Shown: positions 22,322 to 64,000, counted from the stretch's first letter. The stretch is 64,000 nt of DNA from Trypanosoma brucei (GCA_000002445.1 CH464491.1:608001-672000); one strand, 5' to 3'. Numbers and translations: made by a program. Notes: generated by a model not told the origin, from the sequence alone.

Positions 22322-23164
22322 CGTGTTGCGTTTTTTTTCTGGTCGAAATAAAGCTACCATCAGAAGGTGAATTTGTTCCTTCCCTTCCACGCACATACCG
22401 ACGGACCGCGGAGGCGGGGAAACATGGCAATGCATTCCCTTCTCAGAAGTTGGTGGTTCTTTATCGGTTTTCCCGGTTTTTGCTTTTGTTTTCCAATTCG
22501 CTGTTAAAAATGAAAATCAGAGTCGAAAGGTGACGAAAAGAAATGTCTGAGGGATGAAACAACTGTTAGCGACGGTAAGCTGATGCTATATTGTGACGAC
22601 TGTGGCTCCGTCACTATTGCGTAGTGTATTTTTTTTATTCCGTTGCTTGCATGTACATGTAATACGGACAGCTTCACAACTCCGAGAGTGATTTGGGGTA
22701 CTCGGAGCCGCAAGTGCACGAGTTAAGTTGATGCCTGTGTGCGTGCAAATGAGTGGGTGCTTGAGGATACTTTATGGTGTGGTTATTTTCCTATTTCCCC
22801 CCCCTTGCTATTTGTGGCCTGCAGTGCCGTCGTACGTCGTATGCGTTCGTAAGCTTCAATTCCTTTGACTTTGTTGGTGGAATTACCCCGCGATAGTCGG
22901 CATCGCTCATGTGAGGTAGAGGGAGGTGGGATTATTATCTTCTGGGGTTCTGAAACCTTCAGCAAGTTTTGCTTGTTCACCCTCTCCCTTCTGCTTGCCA
23001 TTTTCAATTTTTTCCTTTTTTTAGTGCGGTAAGGGCGACCGTTGATGAGTAGGGTTGTTTTTAAAGCAAGGTTTTGAGGATCGATAGGAGAGCAGACTGA
23101 CAAAACAAAAAGGCCGTAGAATTTTCTTTTATTTTTTGCGTAATCGTTCTGAGGCTTGACGATC

Positions 23165-26100
23165 ATGACTACATGGCTCTTCAATGTAAGTGTCTTGCAT
23201 CTGTCTGCCTCCTTCTCTGAGCCGCGACTAGCCTCCTTCGCGGCTGAGGGACAACTCGCGTGTCGTATGTTTTTCAACGGAAAACCTCTCGATCTCACAT
23301 TTCAGCCCGCATCGGAGATGATTGGAGGGGGAAAACCCCAGTCTACTTTTCTTTACCGTATCCAATCCCTCACGGTTGCTGACCTTTTAAACATGTTGAG
23401 GCAGAGGTCTGTGAGGTTTTACATCGTTCCCGTGAAAAGGAACAGTGATCCGTTAGGTAAGGAGATACGGGCGGCCTGCAGAGCGACCACGAACATCATG
23501 TGCATAGCAGAGCGTGGGGGTGGGCTGCTTGAACTTCCCCTGACATCTGCTGCTTCAAAGGAAGAAGGAAATAGTGGTATTGTAGGTACTCTTTCGGTAT
23601 GTATTGCTTTTGATCAGTTAGCGGAAGTGGAGTTACGTCTCAAGGAGTTTTACGTCTCGGGCTTGGAAAATGGGATATATGGATTGCATTGTCGTCTTGC
23701 CCCCTTCAAGGAGGGTGTTGTGAGCAAGTTGACGCGGGCGCTGTCTGGCACCGCTCGGTGGACTGACGCCGAAGTGCCTATGGCGAAGTATCGGGGTGTG
23801 CTGCGTAACTTAAAAAAGCATCAGTTTGCTATAGCTGTTTATTTGATAGATGGCAATAATAACGAAAGGCCAGTCGCGTCGTTTGAAGTGGATTTAGCAA
23901 TCAAAAATACAAGTGCGTCCTGCAAAGAGATAACAATCCCATTCTCCATGAGTGATGGAAAGACATCAACAACGGTGAACGGGGCTCTTCAACTGAGCGG
24001 GTTACCGACCTTTGAGGACGAAATGCAAAAAATATTACGAGCAGGTCCGGCATGCGTTGACACTGAAGATGAAAAGAAAGAGAAAAACAAATTCTCAGAT
24101 CCCGAAGGGGCCAAGAGCTCAGAGGCCGAGAGCACCACAGAAATTGATACAGAAAACTCAAGTATGGGTCGCCATCTCCCCGAATATTCGCAGGGATCGT
24201 CCCCTCCAATTGTTTCGCGCACATCAACCCCTACAAGAGCGTCACCACGGGATATTTCTTCCCCACCTAGCGAAGATCAAGATGCTGAAGATTGTCGATT
24301 CAGCTTTCCGAGTAAAAACAGCATTTCTGCCCTTTGGCACTCTGAAGCAGATCTGGAATCTCCAACACCGCCACCTGAGAAGGACATGGATGTGCATGGT
24401 GATGTTCCACCGCCAACACCGCCACCTGAGAAGGACATGGATGTGCATGGTGATGTTCCACCGCCAACACCGCCACCCGAGAAGGACATGGATGTGCATG
24501 GTGATGTTCCACCGCCAACACCGCCACCCGAGAAGGACATGGATGTGCATGGTGATGTTCCACCGCCAACACCGCCACCTGAGAAGGACATGGATGTGCA
24601 TGGTGATGTTCCACCGCCAACACCGCCACCCGAGAAGGACATGGATGTGCATGGTGATGTTCCACCGCCAACACCGCCACCCGAGAAGGACATGGATGTG
24701 CATGGTGATGTTCCACCGCCAACACCGCCACCTGAGAAGGACATGGATGTGCATGGTGATGTTCCACCGCCAACACCGCCACCCGAGAAGGACATGGATG
24801 TGCATGGTGATGTTCCACCGCCAACACCACCACCCGAGAAGGACATGGATGTGCATGGTGATGTTCCACCGCCAACACCGCCACCCGAGAAGGACATGGA
24901 TGTGCATGGTGATGTTCCACCGCCAACACCGCCACCCGAGAAGGACATGGATGTGCATGGTGATGTTCCACCGCCAACACCACCACCCGAGAAGGACATG
25001 GATGTGCATGGTGATGTTCCACCGCCAACACCGCCACCCGAGAAGGACATGGATGTGCATGGTGATGTTCCACCGCCAACACCGCCACCCGAGAAGGACA
25101 TGGATGTGCATGGTGATGTTCCACCGCCAACACCGCCACCCGAGAAGGACATGGATGTGCATGGTGATGTTCCACCGCCAACACCGCCACCCGAGAAGGA
25201 CATGGATGTGCATGGTGATGTTCCACCGCCAACACCGCCACCCGAGAAGGACATGGATGTGCATGGTGATGTTCCACCGCCAACACCGCCACCTGAGAAG
25301 GACATGGATGTGCATGGTGATGTTCCACCGCCAACACCACCACCTGAGAAGGACATGGATGTGCATGGTGATGTTCCACCGCCAACACCGCCACCCGAGA
25401 AGGACATGGATGTGCATGGTGATGTTCCACCGCCAACACCGCCACCCGAGAAGGACATGGATGTGCATGGTGATGTTCCACCGCCAACACCGCCACCTGA
25501 GAAGGACATGGATGTGCATGGTGATGTTCCACCGCCAACACCGCCACCCGAGAAGGACATGGATGTGCATGGTGATGTTCCACCGCCAACACCACCACCC
25601 GAGAAGGACATGGATGTGCATGGTGATGTTCCACCGCCAACACCACCACCCGAGAAGGACATGGATGTGCATGGTGATGTTCCACCGCCAACACCACCAC
25701 CCGAGAAGGACATGGATGTGCATGGTGATGTTCCACCGCCAACACCACCACCCGAGAAGGACATGGATGTGCATGGTGATGTTCCACCGCCAACACCACC
25801 ACCCGAGAAGGACATGGATGTGCATGGTGATGTTCCACCGCCAACACCGCCACCCGAGAAGGACATGGATGTGCATGGTGATGTTCCACCGCCAACACCA
25901 CCACCTGAGAAGGACATGGATGTGCATGGTGATGTTCCACCGCCAACACCACCACCCGAGAAGGACATGGATGTGCATGGTGATGTTCCACCGCCAACAC
26001 CGCCACCCGAGAAGGACATGGATGTGCATGGTGATGTTCCACCGCCAACACCGCCACCCGAGAAGGACATGGATGTGCATGGTGATGTTCCACCGCCAAC

Positions 26101-27475
26101 ACCACCACCCGAGAAGGACATGGATGTGCATGGTGATGTTCCACCGCCAACACCACCACCTGAGAAGGACATGGATGTGCATGGTGATGTTCCACCGCCA
26201 ACACCGCCACCCGAGAAGGACATGGATGTGCATGGTGATGTTCCACCGCCAACACCACCACCCGAGAAGGACATGGATGTGCATGGTGATGTTCCACCGC
26301 CAACACCACCACCTGAGAAGGACATGGATGTGCATGGTGATGTTCCACCGCCAACACCACCACCCGAGAAGGACATGGATGTGCATGGTGATGTTCCACC
26401 GCCAACACCACCACCCGAGAAGGACATGGATGTGCATGGTGATGTTCCACCGCCAACACCGCCACCCGAGAAGGACATGGATGTGCATGGTGATGTTCCA
26501 CCGCCAACACCGCCACCCGAGAAGGACATGGATGTGCATGGTGATGTTCCACCGCCAACACCGCCACCTGAGAAGGACATGGATGTGCATGGTGATGTTC
26601 CACCGCCAACACCACCACCCGAGAAGGACATGGATGTGCATGGTGATGTTCCACCGCCAACACCGTCACCTGAGAAGGACATGGATGTGCATGGTGATGT
26701 TCCACCGCCAACACCGCCACCTGAGAAGGACATGGATGTGCATGGTGATGTTCCGATGGTTGTGGAGGGTAGTGCAAATGTTGATTCTTCATGTGTGCTT
26801 GTTTGTAGTGGAGGTGCTGAAGAAGTTGTTGATGTCCCTGCAGATCTTGAATCGGTTGATGATGAAAATGTTTATGTTTCCGAATTGCAATCCACTGCTG
26901 TTTTGAATGAAGATGTTACATTGTTGTTAGATGAATGTGACAGAATGGTGGTAGGTCGTGACGAGGGTGCCTCTGGTAGATCTGTTGGCGTGCCAACACT
27001 ACAGGCTTCTAATTTAATAGAATTTCCACCGCCATCAAATGGAAAAGAACCTGCTACCTCGAGGGAAGAGGCAGCTGATCTTCTTTTAACACGTGAGAGG
27101 GAACTGCTCGATGCGATGGAACATGAGAATGAGTGTATTGACATGCTTGTGCAGTCTCTTAGAAGGATGGATAATGCATCTGAGAAGGATAGGGCTGCTT
27201 ATTGTGCCGAAGTGGACAGGTTGCAGCAGCAGTTTAAGCTGCTGGATGAAGCGGAGGAGGAGCTGACGTTGCTGCTGGCGCGTGCCACCCAAAGGTTTAA
27301 TTTATGTCGTGAGGAACGTCGGAAATCACAGTTGGAGCTCTTGGAGGCGCGCGCGCGGAAGGAAACGTACAGTTTGGCACTTGCTATGATGGACCGGGAG
27401 TTGCGTACACAGTTTGATAACGATGGCAACCGTCGCCCAGGAGGGATGTTCCTATCCAAAAGTGACTCTTCATAA
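23165..27475 (+). CDS. large tandem-repeat protein
   Basis: This is one continuous ORF, with the first ATG at 23165 (track start 23156 is TTG). Protein architecture: a unique ~400-aa N-terminal region, then 47 tandem 17-aa repeats (PPPTPPPEKDMDVHGDV), then a ~240-aa C-terminal region with coiled-coil character (LLTRERELLDAMEHENE...LQQQFKLLDEAEEELTLL). The repeat DNA is nearly invariant, with only synonymous changes plus one Pro-to-Ser change. No stop codon interrupts the array. Confidence 0.85.
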   Translation: MTTWLFNVSVLHLSASFSEPRLASFAAEGQLACRMFFNGKPLDLTFQPASEMIGGGKPQSTFLYRIQSLTVADLLNMLRQRSVRFYIVPVKRNSDPLGKEIRAACRATTNIMCIAERGGGLLELPLTSAASKEEGNSGIVGTLSVCIAFDQLAEVELRLKEFYVSGLENGIYGLHCRLAPFKEGVVSKLTRALSGTARWTDAEVPMAKYRGVLRNLKKHQFAIAVYLIDGNNNERPVASFEVDLAIKNTSASCKEITIPFSMSDGKTSTTVNGALQLSGLPTFEDEMQKILRAGPACVDTEDEKKEKNKFSDPEGAKSSEAESTTEIDTENSSMGRHLPEYSQGSSPPIVSRTSTPTRASPRDISSPPSEDQDAEDCRFSFPSKNSISALWHSEADLESPTPPPEKDMDVHGDVPPPTPPPEKDMDVHGDVPPPTPPPEKDMDVHGDVPPPTPPPEKDMDVHGDVPPPTPPPEKDMDVHGDVPPPTPPPEKDMDVHGDVPPPTPPPEKDMDVHGDVPPPTPPPEKDMDVHGDVPPPTPPPEKDMDVHGDVPPPTPPPEKDMDVHGDVPPPTPPPEKDMDVHGDVPPPTPPPEKDMDVHGDVPPPTPPPEKDMDVHGDVPPPTPPPEKDMDVHGDVPPPTPPPEKDMDVHGDVPPPTPPPEKDMDVHGDVPPPTPPPEKDMDVHGDVPPPTPPPEKDMDVHGDVPPPTPPPEKDMDVHGDVPPPTPPPEKDMDVHGDVPPPTPPPEKDMDVHGDVPPPTPPPEKDMDVHGDVPPPTPPPEKDMDVHGDVPPPTPPPEKDMDVHGDVPPPTPPPEKDMDVHGDVPPPTPPPEKDMDVHGDVPPPTPPPEKDMDVHGDVPPPTPPPEKDMDVHGDVPPPTPPPEKDMDVHGDVPPPTPPPEKDMDVHGDVPPPTPPPEKDMDVHGDVPPPTPPPEKDMDVHGDVPPPTPPPEKDMDVHGDVPPPTPPPEKDMDVHGDVPPPTPPPEKDMDVHGDVPPPTPPPEKDMDVHGDVPPPTPPPEKDMDVHGDVPPPTPPPEKDMDVHGDVPPPTPPPEKDMDVHGDVPPPTPPPEKDMDVHGDVPPPTPPPEKDMDVHGDVPPPTPPPEKDMDVHGDVPPPTPPPEKDMDVHGDVPPPTPPPEKDMDVHGDVPPPTPPPEKDMDVHGDVPPPTPSPEKDMDVHGDVPPPTPPPEKDMDVHGDVPMVVEGSANVDSSCVLVCSGGAEEVVDVPADLESVDDENVYVSELQSTAVLNEDVTLLLDECDRMVVGRDEGASGRSVGVPTLQASNLIEFPPPSNGKEPATSREEAADLLLTRERELLDAMEHENECIDMLVQSLRRMDNASEKDRAAYCAEVDRLQQQFKLLDEAEEELTLLLARATQRFNLCREERRKSQLELLEARARKETYSLALAMMDRELRTQFDNDGNRRPGGMFLSKSDSS
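24356..26755 (+). repeat. 51-bp tandem repeat array, 47 copies, in frame within the CDS 23165..27475
   Basis: The unit is ccaacacc[g/a]ccacc[t/c]gagaaggacatggatgtgcatggtgatgttccaccg, repeated head-to-tail. The only variable positions are two third-codon positions (ccg/cca and cct/ccc) and a single c>t change (Pro to Ser) in unit 46. The periodicity leaves three + frames and three - frames open, which explains the 800-960-aa 'ORFs' in every other frame. Confidence 0.97.
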
Positions 27476-52344: not shown

Positions 52345-54072
52345 ATGCCCAACCCATACAGGAAAAACAAGGATACATCGCGTATACCGTGTGTCTACTT
52401 TAAAAGAGGGTCATGCGCGAACAAGCACTGCCCATTTCTTCATGTGCGTGGCGGTGAAAAAGTCGGACACGAACCTGGGAAAGCACCAGGGGATGTGGGG
52501 ACAAACCTTCTTTGTACGATGTTGAAGTTGGTGTTTGAGAAACAGCAGCAGCGGGTGTATAACGCGGAAACAGGGGTCTTGAACCTGACGCAGTTTAAGG
52601 AAATTCCTGACCTCACGGATGTGGCGGGATCCATCAACTTTAACACACAGGCTTTCTGCCAGGCATTGTGTTCGACAATAAAGTCGCTTATTGTGCCTCC
52701 TCCATCAGCAATTCAACTGAAAGGCAATGGCATATTGTCGGTGTCACATCTAGCGATGCAGTTGGAAAAGGCAGACCTTCATCTGACGCTTCGTGCCATT
52801 TCATTAGAAGCCAACCTAATCAAGTCGGTTGAGTCATTGCAAGAGTTGAAGAAATTCACCAACTTGCGGGAGATTGTACTGAGAGACAATCCTATCGCAA
52901 ATCGGAGCGACTATCGGACAACTATTAAGAAATTGATGCCGTCGTTAATTGGTTTAGATGGAGAGTCCATATGTGTGCCCCCTTTAAGTTTACCGTGGCC
53001 TCAGTTCTCTCCGACGGGATACAGTGAGGCGCAGAAGCATGTGCTGCAGTTCATACAATGCGGGTTGTTAAACCCACTGGAAGGCGACGGTGCTTCCGGA
53101 GTTGCACACGGTGTAGACGCTGTTTCGGACTTGTACGCGGCAAATGCGGTTTTGACCCTCTCCCTCTCTTCGCCAGAAGTTGCTGTAAGCACGCCCATGC
53201 GCACGATGAACGGTGCGGCGGGTGTGCCGCAACAGCGGAACGTAATCAGGGATATTGTGAGTCTTCGGTTAAAACAAACTGAAAGTAATCACAACCTTCT
53301 GCACGGTGTAAAGTCGACTGTTGTTGCGCTTGGTCGGACGAAGGTGTGTTCTCAGATGGAGCACTGGTTGTACCCAAAGACCTTTAGGGTTCATCATTAC
53401 CTCCATAGCAGCGCTAGCACCGTCTTTCTTGACAATTCGTACCTCACAGGCCCGTCGCCCACAGCGATGAAAGTACCCGTGACAATAGTGACACTCCATG
53501 GCACCATGACGTGGAACAACACCGGTGTACCGGGTGATGCGACAACTATTGGCCCAATGACCATTCGGCGCAACTTCACTCGTGTGTTAAGTGTTACACA
53601 AGGGGATGCGGGACGCTGGCTAATCACTAATGACATGGTGTCGTTGTATTTGACGCCGAGTGGGTCATCTGCATCGTCGAAAAGTGGCAACGGAGTGCCT
53701 GAAACGACTCAACTGAGCGAGTGCCGCATTCTGCTCGACCCACGCAGCGACCGTAGCCGTGCGGAGGTACTCAGCCGAAAGAAGGACGTACCGGTAGAGG
53801 TGATTATGGCATTGTGTCAACACGTTGGTAACGATGCGGAGTTATTTACCGTGTTGGATGATATCCGCGGCGTGCCACTCAGTGCCTTTGAACACTGTGC
53901 CAACCTAGCAGGGGAGAATATCATGGAAAGCATTCAGATGTGTCGTTTAGTGAATCTTTTCGGGATGGCACCACAAAATGCATTGGAGATGCTTAGGCAC
54001 AATAACGGTAACTGGAGTGATACTGTTGCTGCGGTTGCTGCTACCGCGCCTGTGGCGGCAGTCCCGCAGTGA
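52345..54072 (+). CDS. MEX67: NXF/Mex67-family nuclear mRNA export factor with an N-terminal CCCH zinc finger
   Basis: An N-terminal C3H motif is present: CVYFKRGSCANKHCPFLH. It is followed by an LRR region (LNLTQFKEIPDLTDV, LRAISLEANLIKSVESLQELKKFTNLREIVLRDNPI), an NTF2-like middle domain and a C-terminal UBA-like tail. It is paralogous to the ORF at 41538. The kinetoplastid-specific CCCH on Mex67 is from memory. Confidence 0.8.
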   Translation: MPNPYRKNKDTSRIPCVYFKRGSCANKHCPFLHVRGGEKVGHEPGKAPGDVGTNLLCTMLKLVFEKQQQRVYNAETGVLNLTQFKEIPDLTDVAGSINFNTQAFCQALCSTIKSLIVPPPSAIQLKGNGILSVSHLAMQLEKADLHLTLRAISLEANLIKSVESLQELKKFTNLREIVLRDNPIANRSDYRTTIKKLMPSLIGLDGESICVPPLSLPWPQFSPTGYSEAQKHVLQFIQCGLLNPLEGDGASGVAHGVDAVSDLYAANAVLTLSLSSPEVAVSTPMRTMNGAAGVPQQRNVIRDIVSLRLKQTESNHNLLHGVKSTVVALGRTKVCSQMEHWLYPKTFRVHHYLHSSASTVFLDNSYLTGPSPTAMKVPVTIVTLHGTMTWNNTGVPGDATTIGPMTIRRNFTRVLSVTQGDAGRWLITNDMVSLYLTPSGSSASSKSGNGVPETTQLSECRILLDPRSDRSRAEVLSRKKDVPVEVIMALCQHVGNDAELFTVLDDIRGVPLSAFEHCANLAGENIMESIQMCRLVNLFGMAPQNALEMLRHNNGNWSDTVAAVAATAPVAAVPQ

Positions 54073-55969
54073 TTTTTGATTCTCTGTGGTATCTGGAGGT
54101 TTGCCGTTTCCGGAGCTTGTATTCAACTATTTATAATGGCGTTACAGCCACAACCATTTCTCTCTTCTCCATTTGTAGGTTTTACCTGGTGTGATCACCG
54201 CTGCTTGATCAGCAACCAAAAAAAAAAAAGAAAAAGAGCTGCGTTGATGTGTTCGCAACAACATCTTTAACAAGCCGTTTTTCCTCTTTGTTCAGCGCAT
54301 AAACAAAGGAATTCGGAGAAGGGAAGGAGGGAAATAAAGTTGTAACGTAGGATCGTGTAAGCAATGAAGTGCAGGAGGATGCGGTGGTGCGAGTGGAAGA
54401 GCGCTATGCATCATATTATAATAACATACGTGAGTTGGAGAGAAATGAAGGAATGGGAGTGTTGATACTGGGTGGTAGTGGTGATGCAAGAGGGGGAAAA
54501 AAAGGGATATGAGAAAACGGGTTGTGGCGCTAAATGTTCCTTTAAGTTGCGGTTGACCACTGAGCCAGACACCGTAGAGTGTTGCCATCTGTGCACTAAT
54601 AATGTGGCTGTATGGTGAAGTCCGTTGAACCGTGTGACGGTTTTCTTTCTTTTTGGCGTGGGTGGTGTTGTTATGCTTTTTTAAAAAAATTTCCTCCTCC
54701 CGTCTTTGAGGTGTGATATGGTGTGCCCAAGTCTAATGTGTTTGAGGGGCGGAAGGTACGTAAAGTAAATGTGCCTAACTGCACACGGAGAAGCGAAACG
54801 AAACCAAAATAAAAATACGATAGGAGGAACGAAAAAGAAAGGGGGAAAGAAGAAGAAGAGGAAAAAAAACATCAGATGATGACGTGGCCGCATTCCTTCC
54901 CTTTGTTTCCTACTATATACACAACGAGGGCTTCAATTACTGCGCGGTAGTTTGGATTACATTGGATTCTGCATCCCTCCATCTTAGCATGTTGGTGGAT
55001 GCACGGTTGTGTTTACACCAAAGCTACTTTTGTCTCTGGCACTGCTTCCTCCACTTCCTGAATTTTCTCATTTTGAGTTCCTGTTTACATTTGCACTAAC
55101 CTCCGTTTCTACACGAACGCAAGCAGTGACACTAGACAGATTGTGGTTTGCAGTCAATTAGTGCTTTTCTGACACGTACATTCTGTTGTGAATTTACGAA
55201 ATTTTTACAAGCGCTTCAGGGCGGTTGAGGTAACGACAGCGGGGTTTACAGCGGTGCGCCGCCAGAGGGAGGGGAAAGGGGGAAAAAAAAGGAAGAAAGG
55301 AAGGAAATGGGAAAGAGAAAAAGAAAAAGAAAGAAAATCAGCCAACAAAGGAACTGGCGACAGCGGCTTGTGTTCTAGTGACTTTTTTGACGTTTGTCGT
55401 TGTGAAGACACTTTATACGAAAAAAAAAAAACTGTGTCGTTATACGTAATCGAAAGGTACATCTACTTAGTTGCATAATGCCCACCACAATGTGTGATAT
55501 TATATCGTACTGTGTTGTACCATAACCTCATTACTCTTTCTCTATCCATTCGTATCGGCGAGGCCTCAAACCGTAAGAACCTCCGCCGAAAGGTAGTCCA
55601 CTTAGGGTTTATACAAAAAAAAATCTGTTGATAATAAGGACATCGCAGAATCAATAAACAGTTTTGTAAAGGACAAATTCAAGGATAAACTCAGGGGGTT
55701 CCCTGTGACTTCTTGTTTTCTCCCACAAGGTTTCAAGGAGGGTTGTATTTACCCTTTGTCGCGCCGAACTTGAGGGTCTCAGGTGCTCCGTGAAGACGCA
55801 GGTAGATACCCACAGGCATATATAAATATATACATATTACATATACGCATTTGTCTACACATCTGTACTTGTATACGTGGCTGTATATCCGCTCGGGGAG
55901 ATAACTAATTAGAGAAGAAAAAATATAAGTGAGGTACGATACCACATATAAAGAAAAAAGTTTCCCGCC

Positions 55970-58711
55970 ATGTCTCTTAGCGCCTTACGGTCCAAACGCA
56001 CCGTAAATGATATTTGGCCTGTCCGTTACAAACGTTTTTTTGTATTGACGGACCCTCAGAATATCATAGGAGAAACCACCGACGGACTGGCAACACTCAC
56101 AACCATTTCTTATCTACTGGAAAGGGAAGCTGCTGTTGTGGTTGCCTCATCCTTTGGCGACTTGAAGGGCATTCCTCTCAGTTTTTCAAGGGGACAGCGT
56201 GAGGAGGCGATTGAAATATTTCGAACTGAGGGTGGCATGGGATACACCAACTACTTCAACTCGCTTCCCATAAACCTCAAGGCAGAGGTTCTCAAGGTCG
56301 CAAACGGATGCGAAACACCCGTGGATTCCGTAACCCTATCTCCTGTGGAAGTAAATGGTGCATTTGCAGCGCTTTCCATACGTCAAAAGGCTGCTGCTCT
56401 TCACAATGTGTTTCCACGAGTGGAATTTTCTCAGTGCTCGACTTATGCCTTCGTGCGTGAACTCACCAATCGTTTCCCCACTGTCCCTGTGAAATTCTCT
56501 CCCGATCCGCTGAATGCCCCGATCAGTCAGCTGAAGCCGGGGGAAATACTGGTGCTTGAAAATTTAAAGTTTTACCAAAATGAAATTTCACCGAACCATG
56601 AAGAGCGTGTGGCGATGGCTGAGGTTTTGGCGTCCTACTGTGATTACTGTGTTAATGAATCCTTCGCAACAGTGTGTGCCGTCCACGCCAGTAACACCGA
56701 GTTACCCAAGATCCTCTACCATGGTGCTGCTGGTTTTTCCATGGAAAAGGAACTCGCCTTCTTCCTCAGCTTCCTCGCCCACCCTCCTCGTCCCATTGTT
56801 GTTGTTGTGGCCGGAAGGCAGTCCTCAAAAAAACTCCGTATGATTCGCAGTTTGGTTGGAAAAGTTGATAAGATTCTTGTGGCGGGTGCGTTGATCATGC
56901 CTTTCCTAGCAGCTAAGGGCCTTACAACTGACAAGTCTTTCAACAACTCCGAACGGGTGGAACGAAGGCGGCTGAATGAAGCCGCCGAAGTGGAGGAGCT
57001 GTCGGTACCTTGTGTTGGGTTTGCTCAAGAAATTATCACATTGTGTGAGAAAAACGGCGTTGAGTTGGTTTTCCCCGTGGACCACGTCGTGACAAGGAGG
57101 ATCACAAAAGCTACGGAGGACTCTGCGGCTATTGTTGAGTCAATTGCGGTCCCTTCGGATGTCTATGCTGTGGATTGCAGCGCGAACACGATCGCACTTT
57201 TTACGAAGTGTATTCGCCCTTGTCAGTGTGTCTTCTGGACTGGAACCTTTGGCTGCACGAGAATGGGCTATTCCGAGGGAACATATGCCTTCGCTAGGGC
57301 TCTGGCGCAACAAGGGAAGCTTTCTATTGTCAGTGGCAACAGTACGGCTTGTGTGGTACGGCAACTAGGGCTAACTTCCCAGTTCTCGCACATCTCAAGT
57401 GGCGGCAGCACGTGCCTGGATGCGTTACAGGGGCACCACCTTCCTGGTGTAGAGATGCTTTCTGATATTCCTGTGGCAGTGGACGTCAGGAGTTGCATAC
57501 TAGCAGACGATCTTCTCCGAAGCTTACCCCTCTTCTCGAACTGCTCTTCACACCAACTTAAGGCGGTAGCGCAGAAGTTTGTGCGGCGAGTCCATGCCTG
57601 TGGTGATTACCTGACGTATTATGGGGACAAGCACGCATGCATGTGGGTTGTTGCGAGCGGTGGGCTGGTGGCCCGGAGTGGTGACACCACACTAACTCTC
57701 CCTTCGCGTTATATCGGACGGGGACAGACGGTTGGTATGTACGGTTTCATCACTCAAAGCTTTGCAACAGATACAATTCAAGCGGCCGAAGACGAAACGG
57801 TCACATACCAGCTGACATTCTCCTCCCTCCAAGATCTCTTCAACGAGCAATCGGACCTTGCAGCGCAGCTCCTCCAAAACGTGTCAGAAACATTGCGGGT
57901 CATGGCAATTGAGGAGTATCGTGAACAGAGCTCTATTATGAACGTGCTGAGGCGTGCGGCTTTGTGCTCTCGGTTTCCCACATTCCTTGCTATACCAAAG
58001 GATTGGGGTTTCATGGAAGACGTCATTCAGGATATCATTTCGGGCACCGTGCTGAGTGGAATAACTCAAATATGCACGGGGCAAACGGCACTTTCCTCGC
58101 CTCGGACGTTTTCATTGGGTCTGGGTTCATCTACTTCCAGAGGTCACATGGTCCACTGCCTTTGCCGAGTAGTATTACGCGATTTGCTGTACCACAAGCT
58201 TATCGAGTACGGCATAATGCCTGCCACCTGCATTTCCTCCATTATTCTTTCCCCGTTTCGACTGAGGGCAATGGGTATGATGTGGAGCGATGTTACGTGC
58301 AAAGCCATGTTGGATGAAGCGCTGCTGTTGGCTGTTGAAATGTGCTCCCCTATTGCTGCGCACGGTACATTTCTTGTGGTGCAGCGCCGAATCGAAGTAT
58401 TACTGAGGCGGAAATGCGCCACCATCGTCAAGTTCTTCCTCACTGCACTGGTTGACGTCGGGTTTGGGTTCGTGTTGTTTCCGCTGACGTTTCACCGCCG
58501 TACAAGCGAAGCCATATCGCTTCCTGACCTTTTCCGTTCCAGTGTTTTTAAGCGTCACCAATGGAAAGTAGTGCTGCTTCTGGTATTACGGTGTGTGGTG
58601 CATGTGCTTTTGAATGGCGTCCGCAGAGTTCATAGGTTTTGGGTGATTAAGAGAAAATCCGAAAGTGGCTGCAACCTGACACCACAGCGGTTGCCCCGAG
58701 TAACAAAATAG
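55970..58711 (+). CDS. phosphoglycerate kinase-like protein (probable pseudoenzyme) with a cNMP-binding-like domain and C-terminal transmembrane segments
   Basis: The first ~430 aa are collinear with PGK: ILVLENLKFYQNE versus ENLRFHxEE; VNESFATVCAVHASN versus VNDAFGTAHRAHSS; AAGFSMEKELAFFLSFLAHPPRPIVVVVAG versus AGGFLMKKELxYFxKALExPERPFLAILGG; HISSGGSTCLDALQG versus HVSTGGGASLELLEG. Substrate-binding basic residues are replaced (SHLGRP becomes SSFGDL; the Arg of TAHRAH is lost). A CAP-family-like segment follows (LFSNCSSHQLKAVAQKFVRRVHACGDYLTYYGDKHACMWVVASGGLVAR). The C-terminus has two hydrophobic helices (LTALVDVGFGFVLFPLTF and WKVVLLLVLRCVVHVLL). Confidence 0.78.
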   Translation: MSLSALRSKRTVNDIWPVRYKRFFVLTDPQNIIGETTDGLATLTTISYLLEREAAVVVASSFGDLKGIPLSFSRGQREEAIEIFRTEGGMGYTNYFNSLPINLKAEVLKVANGCETPVDSVTLSPVEVNGAFAALSIRQKAAALHNVFPRVEFSQCSTYAFVRELTNRFPTVPVKFSPDPLNAPISQLKPGEILVLENLKFYQNEISPNHEERVAMAEVLASYCDYCVNESFATVCAVHASNTELPKILYHGAAGFSMEKELAFFLSFLAHPPRPIVVVVAGRQSSKKLRMIRSLVGKVDKILVAGALIMPFLAAKGLTTDKSFNNSERVERRRLNEAAEVEELSVPCVGFAQEIITLCEKNGVELVFPVDHVVTRRITKATEDSAAIVESIAVPSDVYAVDCSANTIALFTKCIRPCQCVFWTGTFGCTRMGYSEGTYAFARALAQQGKLSIVSGNSTACVVRQLGLTSQFSHISSGGSTCLDALQGHHLPGVEMLSDIPVAVDVRSCILADDLLRSLPLFSNCSSHQLKAVAQKFVRRVHACGDYLTYYGDKHACMWVVASGGLVARSGDTTLTLPSRYIGRGQTVGMYGFITQSFATDTIQAAEDETVTYQLTFSSLQDLFNEQSDLAAQLLQNVSETLRVMAIEEYREQSSIMNVLRRAALCSRFPTFLAIPKDWGFMEDVIQDIISGTVLSGITQICTGQTALSSPRTFSLGLGSSTSRGHMVHCLCRVVLRDLLYHKLIEYGIMPATCISSIILSPFRLRAMGMMWSDVTCKAMLDEALLLAVEMCSPIAAHGTFLVVQRRIEVLLRRKCATIVKFFLTALVDVGFGFVLFPLTFHRRTSEAISLPDLFRSSVFKRHQWKVVLLLVLRCVVHVLLNGVRRVHRFWVIKRKSESGCNLTPQRLPRVTK

Positions 58712-59069
58712 AGGGTATTAACGCATATTTCAGGAAAAAACACATGCCCAAACCCAGAAAGAGGGGAACTGAGCTCCACAATCTGAATAAAAGGCGATGT
58801 CACAGTTTCTCTCCACTTCATTCACACGAAAGCGTGGTTAGCGATGCGTGGACAATTTGATCTTTTTTCAGCACTTACGTGTGCATGTCCACACTTGAGG
58901 TTATCCATGGAAATTTATGTGTAATTACTGTAGTTTATGGTACGCAGTAATTTCGCGGCGAAGGCTGCCTGAAAGCCTTCTCCGTTGCCTGTTTCAGTGC
59001 AGTTGTTAGCCGAAACAGCAGATATGCCGAAGCCGTTCCTGCGAAATGTTTCACCGGATCACGTAAGAC

Positions 59070-59630
59070 GTGGAACTCAAGCGGAAATTTGACCTTCGTT
59101 TCATCGTGGCAGTAAATTCCTTTACGTCGGAGCATTCCTCCTCCATGGAGGCGTACGTCTATAACACTTTCTGGACTCGATTTGCGCTAAAGGAATATTC
59201 ACTCGACGATTTTGACTGCTACGAAAAGCACTGGACGGTTATGAATTACACCAACCCCGAGGCATTGCTTCAGTTGCATGACCATGACTTTGTGAAAGAG
59301 TTTAACGAGGAATATGCCTCGAGTGGTTACGGTGAAGCAGCATGGGAAAAAATTGCATATCCGAAGATTCTGAAAATGCTTCGTGAAGCATTTGGCATGG
59401 TGGTAACGAGGGGTGGGGATCACAGTCGATGCCGTGCGATGTATGGTGTGGATGTTATGCTACGGACGGAGCGCTGTGTTGAAACGGGCGCTTTGACACT
59501 TGAGCCTTCGTTACTCGAAATCACCTTCAGTCCGGACTGCCGTCGCGCCTGCAAATATCATCCAACGTTCTTCAATGACATTTTCCACACACTTTTCCTT
59601 AGGGATCCAACGAACATGACACCACTGTGA
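59070..59630 (+). pseudogene. tubulin-tyrosine-ligase-like (TTL domain) fragment, missing the N-terminal half; probable relic or truncated gene
   Basis: The ORF opens at GTG directly after an in-frame TAA (59064-59066). It contains the central TTL motif KFDLRFIVAVNS (cf. KFDLRxYVLVTS) and the later YGVDVML...LLEITFSPD motif (cf. YGxDxxxD...LLEVNxSPS). The first ATG (59145) lies downstream of the KFDLR motif. There is no room upstream for the ATP-grasp N-terminal half, because the PGK-like gene ends at 58711. Confidence 0.4.
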
Positions 59631-60015
59631 GCTATTTCATTGGAAACATTTTTCTTCCATCATCATTTATGTTGCATGTGGATTTCCATCAGAACTTTGT
59701 CACAGAGTGGTGTTGCTTAACATCAATTTTGTGTGAACCCAGATATATATGCGTATGTATGTGAATGTGTGTGTTCCCTTATGCCTATGCTTCTACCCTT
59801 TTTCTTTTTCCTTTCAGTAATATCTCAGCTTTCAGGATTACAATCAATAAACAAGCGGACAGAGAGGTGGCTCGGGAGGAAAGCCTTTGCGGACAGTGCG
59901 AATTTCTGATTTTCACGTAATCATTCTTCGGGGAGGGGGAGAGACTGTTATTTACTGTCTATATAAGCGTTGATCCCAAAGTAATAACAGTAAGAAACAT
60001 ATAAGATATATCATT

Positions 60016-60672
60016 ATGGGTTGTGGCGGTTCCAAACCTAACGCGGTAAGCAGAGATGTGGAGGAGAAGGCTCTGTATCTTCGTGGTATCAAAGAATCAA
60101 TCGATAAGGCAGAGGGAAACATGCTTGCCACTCTCCATGCCCTGCAGGCGTTGATGAGATCATATGAATCCACTTCATACTCATTTGTTGAGCTTGCACA
60201 CGGTACGGACGGCAATACATCATTGAAGGCGAAGACATTTGAGTCTGATATGCGGACACTAAAAGACAGTGGCATCATGCCGAAACTGCAAAAGGACCTC
60301 GGCCAGTCCGTCAGTTCCTTGGGAAAAGACATCAGGGCAAAACATGACAAAGCGAATGTGGTGTACAGAGAAATGACACAAGCCAATGACGCGTACTGCA
60401 AGTTGCGCGAGCGAGTTAACGGCATAGAGAAGAGTTACGCCAAAAAAAACAAGCCCGTAAGTGAGTGCCCTTCGTACACAAAGAATTGTAAGGAACGTGA
60501 CGTCTGCTTAGCCAGGTATGAAGGACTTAAAAAAGTTTTCCTGACGTTGGTGGAAGAGCTGAGGACTCTCATCCGTTCCTATGTGACTGCAGGGCTTACG
60601 CGATACGCCTTCTCTACTGCGGATTATGCGCAACAGTTGGTGAATAGTCTCCAGAAGTACAAATCCGAGTAA
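60016..60672 (+). CDS. small hypothetical protein with an N-terminal dual-acylation motif (MGCGGS)
   Basis: ATG at 60016. The N-terminus MGCGGSKPN fits the N-myristoylation consensus (Gly2, Ser6) and has Cys3 available for palmitoylation. The rest is a helical, charged 218-aa protein. Confidence 0.6.
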   Translation: MGCGGSKPNAVSRDVEEKALYLRGIKESIDKAEGNMLATLHALQALMRSYESTSYSFVELAHGTDGNTSLKAKTFESDMRTLKDSGIMPKLQKDLGQSVSSLGKDIRAKHDKANVVYREMTQANDAYCKLRERVNGIEKSYAKKNKPVSECPSYTKNCKERDVCLARYEGLKKVFLTLVEELRTLIRSYVTAGLTRYAFSTADYAQQLVNSLQKYKSE

Positions 60673-62012
60673 TTAGCGCAATGAGCAGAAACATGGACTT
60701 AAGATGCAGTTTTCAGACAGGCAATAAAAAGGGGGAAAGGGAAAAAGGTATACATTAAAAAAAAAAAGAGGAAAGGGGACGTGGGGACGGAAGAAACTGA
60801 TTTTATGTTCGGTTGGGATGGGCGGGTTCCATTCCAGTCCCCCCTAGTAGCGGTGAATTTTTTTTTTTTTTGGAGGAGGGGGGGGACGGGAAAATAAGTC
60901 GTTTAGGTGACAGGTGTGTGGACGAGCCGCCGTGCTTATCATTCACATTTTAAACACGGGTTCTGCCGCATTTAAGTTTCGTTTTGCTTCCGCTTTGGTG
61001 TTCTGAAGGTGATGTTTTTTTTTTCTTATATTTTGACTTATGCAATCGGGATCATTTCCTTTTTTGTTCTCGGTGTATGTGATTTTGTGTTTGGCTTCCT
61101 TTTTTTTTTTTTTTTTCTTTTTTTTTTTGGTGTTTCTTTTTCGAATATCTCTACCCCACTTTTTTTCTGTTTGACACATCGTTTAAGTTGGGCTGTGCGT
61201 TGATGATGAAAAATAGATGCTTACCGCTGCTCTTTCCGGTTTTTTTTTCAGCTCCAACGTTGCCGTTACTTGTTGTAGCATTTGTTCTATTATATTACTA
61301 GAGCTATGAATAGATAAGACATGGGAGTAATCTGCCTAATCTTTACTGTTTTGTTTTGTTTTGGTCCCTGAGTATTAGGCGTGCGTGTGTGCGTGCCCAC
61401 ATATGTATTTAAAAAAAAAAAATAGTAATGAAAGACCTACACCTGTTTGTTCCCTTTCCTCATTGTTTCCTCTTTTTTTTTTCTGAGGCACCTTACAAGG
61501 TTTATGCGAGGGGCAGGTTGTTCATTTCACACGAAAAATCGCTATTATATTAGTAAATAATGTTTGCTGTTTCCACCTCCTGGAAAAAAAAAAGGGAGGA
61601 AAAGATATATGTAACAAAATAAAGTAAGAAAATTAAAAAAAAAACAACCTTCCGAAAATACATACAGAACACGGAACATATCCGTCAGAGAGGAGCTCCA
61701 TTATTGGAACATTCTTTTTCTTGCTTTTTCGTTTATTGCAGTGCTGTTGTTCGACCGTTGCGAATAAAAGTGACTAAAAATATATTCTGTCTTCTTCCAA
61801 CATTTTTCTCGTCTTTCTTTTTTCATTCACATGGGGCACAACATGCTTTACCAACAGATGATATTTCGACGAATCAAAAGACAACAGCGCGTAAGGCACA
61901 TACAACGTTAAGGGCAAGAAAAAAAAAAGGGAGGGGGGGGGCGGAAAGTAAATAAATTGCGGCAGCATTAACCATTTAGCGGTTAAAAAGAAGGAAGTGA
62001 ATAATCAAAAAA

Positions 62013-62037
62013 ATAATAATAATAATAATAATAATAA
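62013..62037. repeat. (ATA)n trinucleotide repeat
   Basis: aataataataataataataataa. Confidence 0.85.
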
Positions 62038-64000
62038 GTAAGGGGAATAAATATGGCATTGATATTAACAACAACAATAATATAATTATTAGTATTATTT
62101 GTGAGCCGCTGCGAAGCAGGTTTCTAAATATAAACTCGCCGTTTCCACGCCGAATTTTCACATGGTGCGCGGACTCATCCGAGGTGTACCCGTGAGGTGC
62201 GGTATTTGCCGTTTAAAACATCCCTCATGTTTCTTTCCCAACTCGTTAAAAAAAATATATATATATAGCCAATGGATTTGCGTAAACTTCTGCAGACATA
62301 TCGCTCACCGCCAAATAATACCGCGGTGCAATTTCTCATACACGTGACTTGTGCTGTCGGGGAAAAGACATTTTTTTATTTTTTTTTGCACACTTCGAAA
62401 AGAAAAAAAAATTTGCGTTACCCGCTACCGCCATTCACGGCGAGGAAGCTGAGTTTGCCAGAAGATCCGTTTTCTTATCCTTTTTATTTTCTTCCCCTTT
62501 TATGTAACTGTTGAAAAACTCATTGTGCCACCTTTGTTATTCTGCAGAACACCAATGCTTCATAAGTCGACTGGGACCTTTTAATTGCTTTTCGAAATAT
62601 GGTGACGTTTTGGTTTCGTTTGCAGCATTGGGGGAGTAGAATAATGGTCATTAACTGAGGGAAAGATGTTGACGCGCTTCTTATGTTCCCTTTGGGCGTA
62701 TACTGCATGGTGATGGGTTTCTTCTTGTTCCAACAACTTGGAGAGCTTTAGAACTCGTCGCACTAGCTTCAAAATTAATAAGTGCGTTTGTTTCCCTTAT
62801 CTGCGACTTTGTCCGCTAATTCATTTTCCTTCATGCCGCAACTAAAAAAAAAAACAAAAAAACAGTAAATTTTGATATCACCGCGTTGCTACTAATGAAC
62901 GTCGGAACTGACCACTATATAACACACACAAAAATATTCCATCTTCCACCCGATGTGGAAGATGCCTTAAGAGAAATAGTGCCTGCCAATGCCTGCGATG
63001 TTATCCACGACGAAGGTTTGTCCTTCATTATTTATTTATTTATTTTAGTAGCCTATTCAACCATACCCCCACCACCACCAATTCCGCACGATAGCTGCTG
63101 CCCAACCTCCCAGCGCCCCTATGCTGTTTTATCCTTTTTTCCCCACCCGATTAAGGCGATGGCGGTCACACCCGGCGAAATCCTTTTCTCAATCCACCTT
63201 CCCCTTTGCAATGTGTGGGTCCTCTTCCCGCCGTCCAGTTCGTTAGCCTTCAAGTCTTCCAGTGCAAATGTTTTGATATAAATTATTGGGATGGGAGGCT
63301 CACCATGTTTTCCTCACGGAAAGGGAAGCCAGTTATCCGTTTCGAACCGCCATCTTTCCGCTGAACTGAGCCGCTTGTGAAGTGTTTTTTTTTTTTGTTG
63401 CAGGGATATGGCCGCATCCACGTATCGGGAAACTGGCCCTCTTTGGCCCTGAGTGTTCCGCAATATTCGATCATCCCTTTGCGCACCACCTTCCCCGCAA
63501 ATTCCCCAGCCGCGGTTCTTCAGCTGTGCTTGCTTATTTGGGCCGAGTGGAAAACCACCCGGCACCTGCACCATAACATATTCTCATTCGAACGGGGCCC
63601 AAACAGAAGGTTCGCGGGGTTTTGCACCCTTGGTTCCTACTGAGCCGGCGCTGTCACCCTTCGTCTTCAGTAAACTTGCCTTTTCACACTAAGCCGTTTG
63701 TTTCGTGTGTTGCGATGTCACTTTTATTGATTGGGAAGCGGGTGCCAGAAGGTTTGGGGGTTTTGCTTCTCTTACCCGCCCCTTCCCGCCACCACGGGAT
63801 ACGGTGAGTTCCGAGCGCACACGCCAAGTGCCGTATAATGTTGCATTCCCCAGTTGCCGGTTCTGTGGCCCGCCCCTCTGACCGCTGGAAAACGTGGTTG
63901 AGTTGTCGCTGCAGTTAATTTTCAGAGACTTCTACATTCCCGCAAGTGCATTCGATTACTTTTTTTCTTTTGTTAATCGGTGTGCTATTCGGCAATGTTG

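What the first reader, a model, noticed from the sequence alone, without database searches (positions are those of the whole stretch)
59070..59630. A tubulin-tyrosine-ligase-like domain fragment with no ATG before its conserved core, pressed against the preceding gene
The ORF contains the TTL central motif KFDLRFIVAV and the downstream YGVDVML...LLEITFSPD motif. It begins at GTG immediately after an in-frame TAA. Its first ATG lies after KFDLR. The ATP-grasp N-terminal half (~150-200 aa) is absent and could not fit in the 360 bp after the PGK-like stop. Upstream, another frame gives a short ATG ORF (MPKPFLRNVSPDHVRRGTQAEI*). That could be a frameshifted remnant. This looks like a decayed TTLL gene, or a very unusual short TTL-like protein initiating at a non-ATG codon.
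Basis: seen in the sequence. Interest (0 to 1): 0.5.

Follow-up and report, generated by a model that had tools for sequence, protein, structure and literature searches.

The report
Truncated copy of neighbouring TTLL12 gene
The short tubulin-tyrosine-ligase-like ORF is a pristine 776-base copy of the tail of an intact TTLL12 gene that lies further along the same Trypanosoma brucei chromosome on the opposite strand. It was pasted in front of the FlabarinL gene only in the T. brucei lineage and is most likely a non-functional by-product of recombination, not a decayed gene or a new mini-enzyme.

Summary
ORF 59070-59630 matches Pfam TTL positions 114-281 of 292 (E 1.5e-25) and has no ATG before KFDLR.

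The window is T. brucei TREU927 chromosome 11. The 161-aa ATG version is already annotated (XP_828323.1, "hypothetical protein, conserved").

The ORF is not a decayed gene. Bases 59078-59853 are an almost exact copy (0-3 differences) of residues 464-646, the stop codon and 223 nt of downstream spacer of the intact 646-aa TTLL12 gene. In T. b. gambiense that gene lies about 8.6 kb away on the opposite strand, across a convergent strand-switch region.

- Both ends of the copy are sharp.
- An 8-nt direct repeat (CAAGCGGA) flanks it.
- Nothing upstream resembles TTLL12.
- The syntenic PGK-like/FlabarinL spacer in T. vivax (527 nt), T. rangeli and Angomonas holds no TTL sequence. Removing the insert from T. 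brucei leaves 536 nt.

Most likely this is a recent, lineage-specific, microhomology-mediated templated copy, that is, a gene fragment. It also brought FlabarinL a strong polypyrimidine tract and AG.

With an inner inverted repeat it frames a mosaic palindrome whose arms still exchange sequence. In T. equiperdum IVM-t1 the FlabarinL cassette has been overwritten by Flabarin.

Interest is low to moderate.

The parts
55970..58711 (+). PGK-like gene (913 aa, PGK plus a weak cNMP-binding domain). It is the upstream neighbour and the syntenic anchor.
   Evidence: EAN79210/XP_828322, T. brucei TREU927.
58712..59077 (+). Recipient-locus spacer with no TTLL12 homology. It holds weak polypyrimidine tracts (58806-58823), nine upstream ATGs and the start of the short ORF 59024-59092.
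   Evidence: no similarity to TTLL12; tracts and ATGs.
59078..59853 (+). The 776-nt copied block: TTLL12 codons 464-646, the stop codon and 223 nt of the TTLL12-Flabarin spacer. It is the outer arm of an inverted repeat whose other arm is the 3' end of the intact TTLL12 gene on the minus strand, beyond the window.
   Evidence: Identity to the parent arm is 99.6-100% and both boundaries are sharp.
59070..59630 (+). The flagged GTG ORF (186 aa). Only the part from 59079 onwards (K464) derives from TTLL12.
59145..59630 (+). The annotated 161-aa ATG ORF (EAN79211/XP_828323, 'hypothetical protein, conserved').
59078..59085 (+). Left copy of the 8-nt direct repeat CAAGCGGA, at the left junction.
   Evidence: Chance of such a repeat is about 0.003.
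59852..59859 (+). Right copy of the 8-nt direct repeat CAAGCGGA, straddling the right junction.
59796..59817 (+). A 20-nt polypyrimidine tract followed by AG, inside the copied block and 200 nt upstream of the FlabarinL ATG. I infer it is the trans-splicing signal now used by FlabarinL, and that it sets the poly(A) site of the upstream transcript.
   Evidence: One search shows the sequence. The function is inferred from the established coupling of trans-splicing and polyadenylation in trypanosomes and was not tested.
60016..60672 (+). TbFlabarinL (Tb927.11.2400, 218 aa, bloodstream-form specific), the last gene of the plus-strand transcription unit.
   Evidence: PMC5078803.
62416..64000 (+). 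Left arm of a second, inner inverted repeat, cut by the window end. Arms are 1645 nt in gambiense at about 99.9% identity and about 1735 nt in IVM-t1.

Best explanation
The ORF is the truncated edge of a 776-nt piece of DNA copied from the intact TTLL12 gene, which lies further along the same chromosome on the opposite strand.

The donor stretch begins inside TTLL12 at codon 464. It runs through the stop codon and ends 52 nt before the Flabarin ATG. It was pasted into the spacer between the PGK-like gene and FlabarinL.

The event occurred in the T. brucei lineage, after the split from T. vivax. The most likely route is a microhomology-mediated template switch or break repair that used the 8-nt match CAAGCGGA. 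This explains why the copy starts just before KFDLR and why no ATG precedes the conserved core.

As a protein-coding unit it is most likely inert, for three reasons:
- It lacks the SET-like domain and the first 113 positions of the TTL profile, including the 'WISKP' stretch that the parent carries upstream (residues 419-423). I equate that stretch with the family's ATP-binding lysine motif from memory, not from a test.
- Its leader carries nine upstream ATGs.
- Its intactness only reflects its youth.

What the block probably does contribute is RNA-processing signal. It places a strong polypyrimidine tract and AG 200 nt upstream of FlabarinL.

Together with an inner inverted repeat, the block makes the locus a mosaic palindrome across a convergent strand-switch region. 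The arms of that palindrome still exchange sequence.

Shown: identity to the parent, the boundaries, absence from outgroups, the flanking repeat, and arm exchange. Inferred: the copying mechanism, lack of translation, and use of the splice signal.
For: - The 161-aa ORF falls in the same 90% cluster as the 646-aa TTLL12 (SET_TTL + TTL), and its protein sequence is identical to residues 464-646.
- In T. b. gambiense the two arms are 757 nt at 99.7% identity, inverted and 8.6 kb apart. The window arm is 99.6% identical over 776 nt to the gambiense parent arm.
- Homology ends abruptly at both ends, and nothing upstream is TTLL12-like.
- The Flabarin/FlabarinL duplication is old. The two proteins are 38% identical, and positional orthologues of both exist in T. 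vivax.
- T. vivax nevertheless has only 527 nt between PGK-like and its FlabarinL orthologue, with no TTL hit anywhere in that locus. T. rangeli and Angomonas also have no TTL sequence between PGK-like and their Flabarin gene.
- The T. brucei spacer minus the 768-nt insert is 536 nt.
- The 8-nt direct repeat CAAGCGGA flanks the block. A repeat this long occurs by chance at a rate of 0.0028 at random positions in the window.
- The same junction is seen in six of seven independent assemblies, and short-read contigs stop about 30 nt into the block at either end.
- Arm exchange: sites 59726 and 59819 show all four haplotypes among the arms. In IVM-t1 the arms are a 4.5-kb, 99.9% palindrome in which FlabarinL has been replaced by a second Flabarin copy.
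- In gambiense a 2-nt shorter junction puts the GTG/KFDLR start out of frame.
Against: - The block sits at the mirror-image position to its donor relative to the two Flabarin paralogues. That fits equally well with a very old inverted duplication kept identical by gene conversion and then lost in T. vivax.
- The 8-nt repeat has a chance probability of about 0.003, which is suggestive rather than overwhelming.
- The DAL972 junction carries an unexplained 17-nt variant, so the ancestral junction cannot be polarised with certainty.
- T. congolense could not be examined.
- The right arm of TREU927 itself was not available. It is known only at protein level.
- No RNA-seq, ribosome-profiling or proteomic data were available, so lack of expression is an inference. 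The ORF is intact in all three assemblies that span it.
Confidence: 0.72

Rival explanations
1. Relic of the ancient inverted duplication that created Flabarin and FlabarinL. On this reading the original duplicated unit included the TTLL12 3' end. The flanks have been kept identical by repeated gene conversion between the palindrome arms, while the Flabarin genes diverged under selection.
For: - The order across the palindrome is collinear: outer block about 100% identical, Flabarin coding sequences 68-72% at nucleotide level, inner arms about 100%.
- Arm exchange is demonstrably active.
- The block lies at the mirror position to its donor.
Against: - T. vivax has both old paralogues in the same positions but no TTL sequence upstream of the PGK-side copy, and its spacer length equals the T. 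brucei spacer minus the insert.
- An 8-nt direct repeat flanks the block, as expected for an insertion and not for conversion of pre-existing homology.
- There is no residual diverged homology outside the block.
Confidence: 0.15
2. A genuine short TTL-like protein (161 aa from the ATG at 59145, or 186 aa from the GTG) that acts as a regulator or dominant-negative partner of TTLL12 or tubulin.
For: - The ORF is intact in TREU927, DAL972 and IVM-t1, and is annotated as a gene.
- It retains the TTLL12 C-terminal signature LLE[IV]T..PDCxRAC.
Against: - With only 0-3 differences from the parent, intactness carries no information about selection.
- One of the few changes is non-synonymous (A to V in IVM-t1).
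- The ORF is absent at the syntenic site outside the T. brucei group.
- The fragment lacks profile positions 1-113 and the SET-like domain.
- The GTG start is out of frame in gambiense.
- Nine upstream ATGs precede 59145.
Confidence: 0.05
3. The block matters as nucleic acid. If transcription reads through the convergent strand-switch region, the two arms would form a 776-bp hairpin stem antisense to TTLL12 and feed the nuclear Dicer pathway. The block could also serve as a homology bracket for exchanging the stage-specific Flabarin cassettes.
For: - Tschudi et al. [quoted passage not shown] These include one on chromosome 11 with 1,814-bp arms in a 12-kb region.
- Cassette replacement has happened in IVM-t1.
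Against: - No small-RNA data could be mapped here.
- I could not show that their IR7 is this locus.
- The two arms are normally transcribed in the sense direction by separate units.
- The IVM-t1 event may simply be an accident, or a mis-assembly.
Confidence: 0.1
4. Assembly artefact: mis-joined reads from the real TTLL12 gene.
For: Repeats of this kind do break short-read assemblies.
Against: - The unique junction GGAACT|CAAGCGGAAATTTG is present in Sanger, PacBio and three independent short-read assemblies.
- The right junction into FlabarinL is present in four further contigs.
Confidence: 0.01

Closest known systems
T. brucei TTLL12 (646 aa; EAN79213.1; SET-like + TTL domains), one of the two TTLL12 paralogues named TTLL12A/B in the literature
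   Same: The fragment is protein-identical to its residues 464-646. It is nearly identical at DNA level, including 223 nt downstream of the stop. It shares the TTLL12 signature LLE[IV]T..PDCxRAC.
   Different: The fragment lacks residues 1-463, which hold the SET-like domain and TTL profile positions 8-113. It sits on the other strand next to a different gene. I could not determine whether the parent is TTLL12A or TTLL12B.
Partial gene duplicates (unprocessed pseudogene fragments) made by microhomology-mediated templated insertion or template switching (FoSTeS/MMBIR-type events)
   Same: A discrete copied block with sharp ends, a nearby donor in inverted orientation, a short flanking direct repeat, and no loss of recipient sequence.
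   Different: The mechanism is inferred from junction anatomy only. One strain (DAL972) has a different 17-nt junction patch.
Long, near-identical inverted repeats of T. brucei (Tschudi et al. 2012, PMC3447711)
   Same: Arms of hundreds to thousands of bases at 99-100% identity in the core of a chromosome at a convergent transcription unit.
   Different: The 776-nt outer pair is not demonstrably in their list of seven. No small-RNA evidence is available for it here.
Palindromes with arm-to-arm gene conversion (for example the human Y-chromosome ampliconic palindromes)
   Same: Patchy near-identity of the arms, shared polymorphisms between arms, and wholesale homogenisation in one lineage.
   Different: The scale is much smaller. 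The palindrome spans a transcription-termination region, and one gene pair inside it has stayed divergent (38% identity).

Membership tests
Tubulin-tyrosine ligase family (Pfam PF03133) | Significant match to the family profile | tested here: met
   E 1.5e-25 and 90.4 bits against a cut-off of 20.1.
Tubulin-tyrosine ligase family (Pfam PF03133) | Complete ATP-grasp-type TTL domain, including the N-terminal part and the nucleotide-binding 'KP' stretch upstream of KFDLR | tested here: not met
   Only profile positions 114-281 of 292 are covered, whereas the parent covers 8-281. The parent's WISKP stretch (residues 419-423) lies upstream of the copy. Nothing in 58712-59077 resembles it.
TTLL12 subfamily | N-terminal SET-like domain (PF25556) | tested here: not met
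   It is present in the parent at residues 75-215 and absent from the fragment and from its upstream DNA.
TTLL12 subfamily | C-terminal signature YGVDVM ... LLE[IV]T[FY]xPDCxRAC | tested here: met
   These columns are invariant in alignment A1 with TTLL12-named proteins and with T. vivax TTLL12.
Partial duplicate / pseudogene fragment of a resident gene | Near-identity to part of an intact parent gene in the same genome, with sharp homology boundaries | tested here: met
Partial duplicate / pseudogene fragment of a resident gene | Absence from the orthologous site in related species | tested here: met
   T. vivax (two assemblies), T. rangeli and Angomonas deanei. T. congolense was not available.
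Partial duplicate / pseudogene fragment of a resident gene | Not expressed as a protein | not testable with these tools
   No transcript, ribosome-footprint or peptide data were available. Peptides would also be indistinguishable from those of the parent.
Microhomology-mediated templated insertion | Short direct repeat or microhomology at the junctions and no loss of recipient sequence | tested here: inconclusive
   The 8-nt CAAGCGGA repeat lies at both junctions, with a chance rate of 0.0028. The spacer minus the insert is 536 nt against 527 nt in T. vivax. DAL972, however, has a variant junction.
siRNA-producing long inverted repeats of T. brucei (PMC3447711) | Near-identical inverted arms | tested here: met
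siRNA-producing long inverted repeats of T. brucei (PMC3447711) | AGO1-bound 22-25-nt RNAs mapping to the arms, dependent on DCL2 | not testable with these tools
   Only the published tables could be read. Their coordinates could not be related to the window.

The most novel reading that the evidence does not exclude
The copied TTLL12 tail and the inner inverted repeat act as homology brackets of a self-homogenising palindrome built across a transcription-termination region. The brackets allow the bloodstream-specific FlabarinL cassette to be overwritten by, or swapped with, the procyclic Flabarin cassette, as seen in T. equiperdum IVM-t1. When transcription reads through, they yield a 776-bp hairpin whose siRNAs are antisense to TTLL12. 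The 'junk' fragment would then couple the termination efficiency of two transcription units to the level of a tubulin-modifying enzyme.
Probability: 0.08. Interest if true: 0.6.

Novelty: new member of a known kind. Interest (0 to 1): 0.3.

Why it matters
- **Annotation.** A gene carried in T. brucei annotations as a 'hypothetical protein, conserved' (XP_828323.1 and its DAL972 and equiperdum counterparts) should be read as a truncated copy of TTLL12.
- **Experiments on TTLL12.** RNAi fragments, probes, primers, peptides or CRISPR guides aimed at the last 550 nt of TTLL12 or its 3' flank will also hit this locus. That may include the PGK-like or FlabarinL transcripts. Short reads there are multi-mapping.
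- **FlabarinL and Flabarin.** The two oppositely stage-regulated genes share identical upstream processing signals. This points to their unrelated 3' regions as the source of stage specificity.
- **Genome dynamics.** The locus gives a datable, small-scale example of templated copying and arm-to-arm homogenisation at a convergent strand-switch region in a trypanosome. One natural strain appears to have lost FlabarinL this way.

Tried and rejected
- **Word-indexed protein search with the ORF.** It returned only distant TTLL12 proteins from metagenomes (37-40% identity). It missed the identical T. brucei parent, which the exact-sequence look-up then found.
- **Frameshifted N-terminal remnants upstream.** By eye, 'QLLAETADMPK' seemed to echo the parent's 'ELLRAVETGPK'. 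tblastn (best E 0.39, elsewhere in the protein) and dinucleotide-shuffle controls showed nothing above chance, so I rejected this.
- **Solved structures.** A PDB sequence search with the parent gave no hit at E<=0.001, so domain mapping rests on Pfam coordinates. I did not run structure prediction because it would not discriminate between the hypotheses.
- **RNA genes in the strand-switch region.** No tRNA genes and no Rfam families were found.
- **Direct repeats.** The repeat finder for direct repeats in 54000-64000 found none, because the partner arm lies outside the window and is inverted.
- **Gene identifiers.** Literature searches for Tb927.11.2390 and Tb927.11.2420 found no paper. These numbers are inferred from the neighbours Tb927.11.2400 and Tb927.11.2410 and are not confirmed. 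TTLL12A or TTLL12B could not be assigned.
- **The published chromosome-11 inverted repeat IR7.** Whether IR7 (PMC3447711) is the inner repeat could not be settled, because their coordinates refer to an older assembly.
- **DAL972 junction patch.** A search for a donor of the 17-nt patch found none.
- **First null model for the 8-nt repeat.** It was contaminated by a 51-nt tandem array, so I repeated it without the array.
- **Ungapped arm comparison.** A 1-nt indel in IVM-t1 made the ungapped comparison misleading, so I redid it with an alignment.

Full report
**What is at the coordinates**

The ORF 59070-59630 exists as described.
- Its GTG is at 59070, one codon after an in-frame TAA (59064-59066).
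- KFDLRFIVAV lies near the start and YGVDVML...LLEITFSPD near the end.
- The first in-frame ATG is at 59145.
- The PGK-like ORF ends at 58711.
- A 22-codon ATG ORF lies in another frame at 59024-59092.

Pfam scores the ORF as TTL family at E 1.5e-25, but only over profile positions 114-281 of 292.

**Where the window comes from and what the ORF is called**

Exact-sequence look-up shows the window is Trypanosoma brucei brucei TREU927 chromosome 11.
- The 913-aa PGK-like protein is EAN79210/XP_828322.
- The downstream 218-aa protein is EAN79212.
- The 161-aa ATG version of the flagged ORF is already annotated as EAN79211/XP_828323, 'hypothetical protein, conserved'.

According to PMC5078803 the 218-aa gene is TbFlabarinL (Tb927.11.2400), which is bloodstream-form specific. 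Its 38%-identical paralogue TbFlabarin (Tb927.11.2410, 222 aa) is procyclic specific. That paper places Flabarin on the complementary strand, about 12 kb away in TREU927. It does not mention any TTL sequence.

**The parent gene**

The 161-aa ORF falls in the same 90% cluster as a 646-aa protein (EAN79213) that carries a SET-like domain (residues 75-215) and a TTL domain (residues 336-637). That protein is a TTLL12. From KRKFDLRF onwards, the flagged ORF is identical to residues 464-646 of this protein.

In T. b. gambiense DAL972 the gene order is:
- PGK-like (+)
- the fragment (+)
- FlabarinL (+)
- about 7 kb of non-coding DNA
- Flabarin (-)
- TTLL12 (-)
- a dynein heavy chain (-)

The locus is therefore a convergent strand-switch region, and the fragment and its parent are inverted relative to each other. 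In gambiense the two arms are 757 nt at 99.7% identity and 8.6 kb apart. The window arm is 99.6% identical over 776 nt to the gambiense parent arm.

**Anatomy of the copy**

Base-by-base alignment puts the copied block at 59078-59853. It comprises:
- codons 464-646 of TTLL12,
- the stop codon,
- 223 nt of the TTLL12-Flabarin spacer, including a 20-nt polypyrimidine tract (59796-59815) followed by AG.

Identity drops from about 100% to nothing recognisable at both ends.

The 366 nt between the PGK-like stop and the block show no similarity to TTLL12. The best tblastn E is 0.39, to an unrelated region of the protein. Local alignment scores against the parent's upstream coding sequence lie inside the dinucleotide-shuffle distribution. 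There is therefore no frameshifted N-terminal remnant, and the short upstream ORF is recipient-locus DNA.

**An insertion rather than an old relic**

The Flabarin duplication is old. T. vivax has a PGK-side copy (242 aa) and a TTLL12-side copy (237 aa) on one contig, in convergent orientation. Similarity scores pair each with the T. brucei gene in the same position.

Despite this, T. vivax has only 527 nt between PGK-like and its PGK-side Flabarin. No TTL similarity appears anywhere in that locus in two assemblies. T. rangeli and Angomonas deanei, which have a single Flabarin on the PGK side, also have no TTL sequence there.

In T. brucei the spacer is 1304 nt, and removing the 768-nt insert leaves 536 nt.

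The block is flanked by an 8-nt direct repeat, CAAGCGGA, at 59078-59085 and 59852-59859. A repeat this long at comparably placed random positions in the window occurs with frequency 0.0028.

The sequence is exactly what a template switch would produce:
- the nascent strand leaves the recipient at CAAGCGGA;
- it continues on the donor at its own CAAGCGGA (codons K464-R465 of TTLL12);
- it copies 768 nt;
- it returns to the recipient at the CA of the same 8-mer.

The fragment begins just before KFDLR because that is where the microhomology happened to be.

**Is the junction real and uniform?**

The junction GGAACT|CAAGCGGAAATTTG is present in TREU927, T. equiperdum IVM-t1, T. equiperdum OVI and three short-read assemblies. 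The short-read contigs all stop about 30 nt into the block, as expected at a repeat edge. The FlabarinL contigs likewise start about 30 nt before the right edge.

Only DAL972 differs. It has a 17-nt variant patch that is 2 nt shorter, and I could not find a source for it. In DAL972 the GTG/KFDLR start is consequently out of frame with the TTL part. Only the ATG ORF is shared by all strains.

**The wider structure: a mosaic palindrome that is still exchanging sequence**

In gambiense the left and right halves of the locus are collinear in mirror image:
- outer block at 99.7% identity,
- Flabarin and FlabarinL coding sequences at 68-72% nucleotide identity,
- 3' regions without detectable similarity,
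- inner arms of 1645 nt at 99.9% identity.

Window 62416-64000 is the left inner arm.

Among six available outer arms there are only a few variable sites. Sites 59726 and 59819, which are 93 nt apart, show all four haplotypes, and alleles are shared between arm types. This requires exchange between arms or alleles.

In the T. equiperdum IVM-t1 assembly the arms form a 4.5-kb, 99.9% identical palindrome with a 306-nt centre. There the FlabarinL cassette has been replaced by a second, identical Flabarin gene, with the outer boundary at the same junction. T. equiperdum OVI retains both genes. If the IVM-t1 assembly is correct, the outer block and the inner arms have served as homology for a cassette conversion.

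**How it most likely works**

- *Shown:* the fragment is a young, lineage-specific partial copy of TTLL12.
- *Inferred:* it is not a functional enzyme and probably not a protein at all.

The reasons for that inference are:
- It lacks the SET-like domain and the first 113 TTL profile positions, including the parent's WISKP stretch.
- Nine ATGs precede 59145 in the spacer.
- With only 0-3 differences from the parent, its open frame says nothing about selection. One of the few changes is non-synonymous.

The imported polypyrimidine tract and AG, 200 nt upstream of the FlabarinL ATG, are likely to be used for FlabarinL trans-splicing. By the known coupling of the two reactions in trypanosomes, they would also set the poly(A) site of the upstream transcript. 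In that case the TTLL12-derived ORF would lie in a 3' UTR or in a short orphan transcript. This step is inference and needs spliced-leader and poly(A) mapping.

**Comparison with what is known**

The fragment belongs to the TTL family by profile score and to the TTLL12 branch by its C-terminal signature LLE[IV]T..PDCxRAC, which is invariant in alignment A1. It fails the test for a complete TTL domain and for the TTLL12 SET-like domain.

It is best filed as a partial gene duplicate made by templated copying. It sits in a palindrome of the kind whose arms undergo gene conversion.

Tschudi et al. (PMC3447711) described seven long, near-identical inverted repeats in T. brucei, and all convergent transcription units, as sources of DCL2-dependent siRNAs. 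One of the seven is on chromosome 11, with 1,814-bp arms in a 12-kb region. Whether that is the inner repeat here could not be established. I found no paper that mentions the fragment.

**Verdict**

The kind of object is well known. This instance seems not to have been described. It has practical consequences for annotation and for experiments that target the TTLL12 3' end. It also marks an actively homogenising palindrome at a transcription-termination region. Interest is low to moderate (0.3).

Noticed in passing
window 62416-64000 (cut by the window end); L001 13277-14921 and 15700-17344: A second, inner inverted repeat at the centre of the convergent strand-switch region. Arms are at least 1645 nt at about 99.9% identity. 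It may be the chromosome-11 repeat 'IR7' (1,814-bp arms) reported as an siRNA source in PMC3447711, but the coordinates could not be matched.
   Followed up: partly
L006 9934-14430 and 14737-19235 (T. equiperdum IVM-t1, CM010682.1): In this assembly the locus is a near-perfect 4.5-kb palindrome. FlabarinL is replaced by a second identical copy of Flabarin (222 aa). This is either a natural cassette conversion that deleted a bloodstream-specific flagellar gene or a long-read mis-assembly.
   Followed up: partly
L002 9065-9081 (T. b. gambiense DAL972): The left junction of the copied block carries a 17-nt variant (CAAAACGAAGGAATCGC in place of CAAGCGGAAATTTGACCTT, 2 nt shorter). It is not seen in six other assemblies, and no donor sequence was found nearby. 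It could be a real lineage-specific rearrangement or a sequence error.
   Followed up: partly
L003 and L008 (T. equiperdum OVI contigs): T. equiperdum OVI encodes an exact copy of TbFlabarinL as well as Flabarin. PMC5078803 stated that FlabarinL is missing in T. equiperdum. The assembly breaks at the edges of the repeat.
   Followed up: yes
L013 (T. rangeli) 6579-10825; L014 (Angomonas deanei) 3849-11029: In species with a single Flabarin, the gene lies on the PGK-like side of the strand-switch region. By position, T. brucei 'FlabarinL' therefore occupies the ancestral site, and the gene named Flabarin (next to TTLL12) is the relocated inverted copy. By sequence, however, Flabarin scores closer to the T. 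rangeli gene.
   Followed up: partly
L014 16393-17190 (-), Angomonas deanei: A 265-aa gene matches only the SET-like N-terminal part of TTLL12 (residues 2-233, E 6e-20). No TTL domain follows it within this 21-kb stretch.
   Followed up: no
window 24362-26754: A very regular tandem array of 47 copies of a 51-nt unit (98% matches) lies inside the long ORF 23156-27475, so it encodes a 17-residue protein repeat. It creates long spurious ORFs in other frames and on the opposite strand.
   Followed up: no
window 60680-62400: The stretch after FlabarinL holds no ORF of 90 aa or more and is rich in homopolymer A/T and pyrimidine runs. It shows no similarity to the corresponding stretch after Flabarin, although the two genes share identical upstream sequence.
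   Followed up: no
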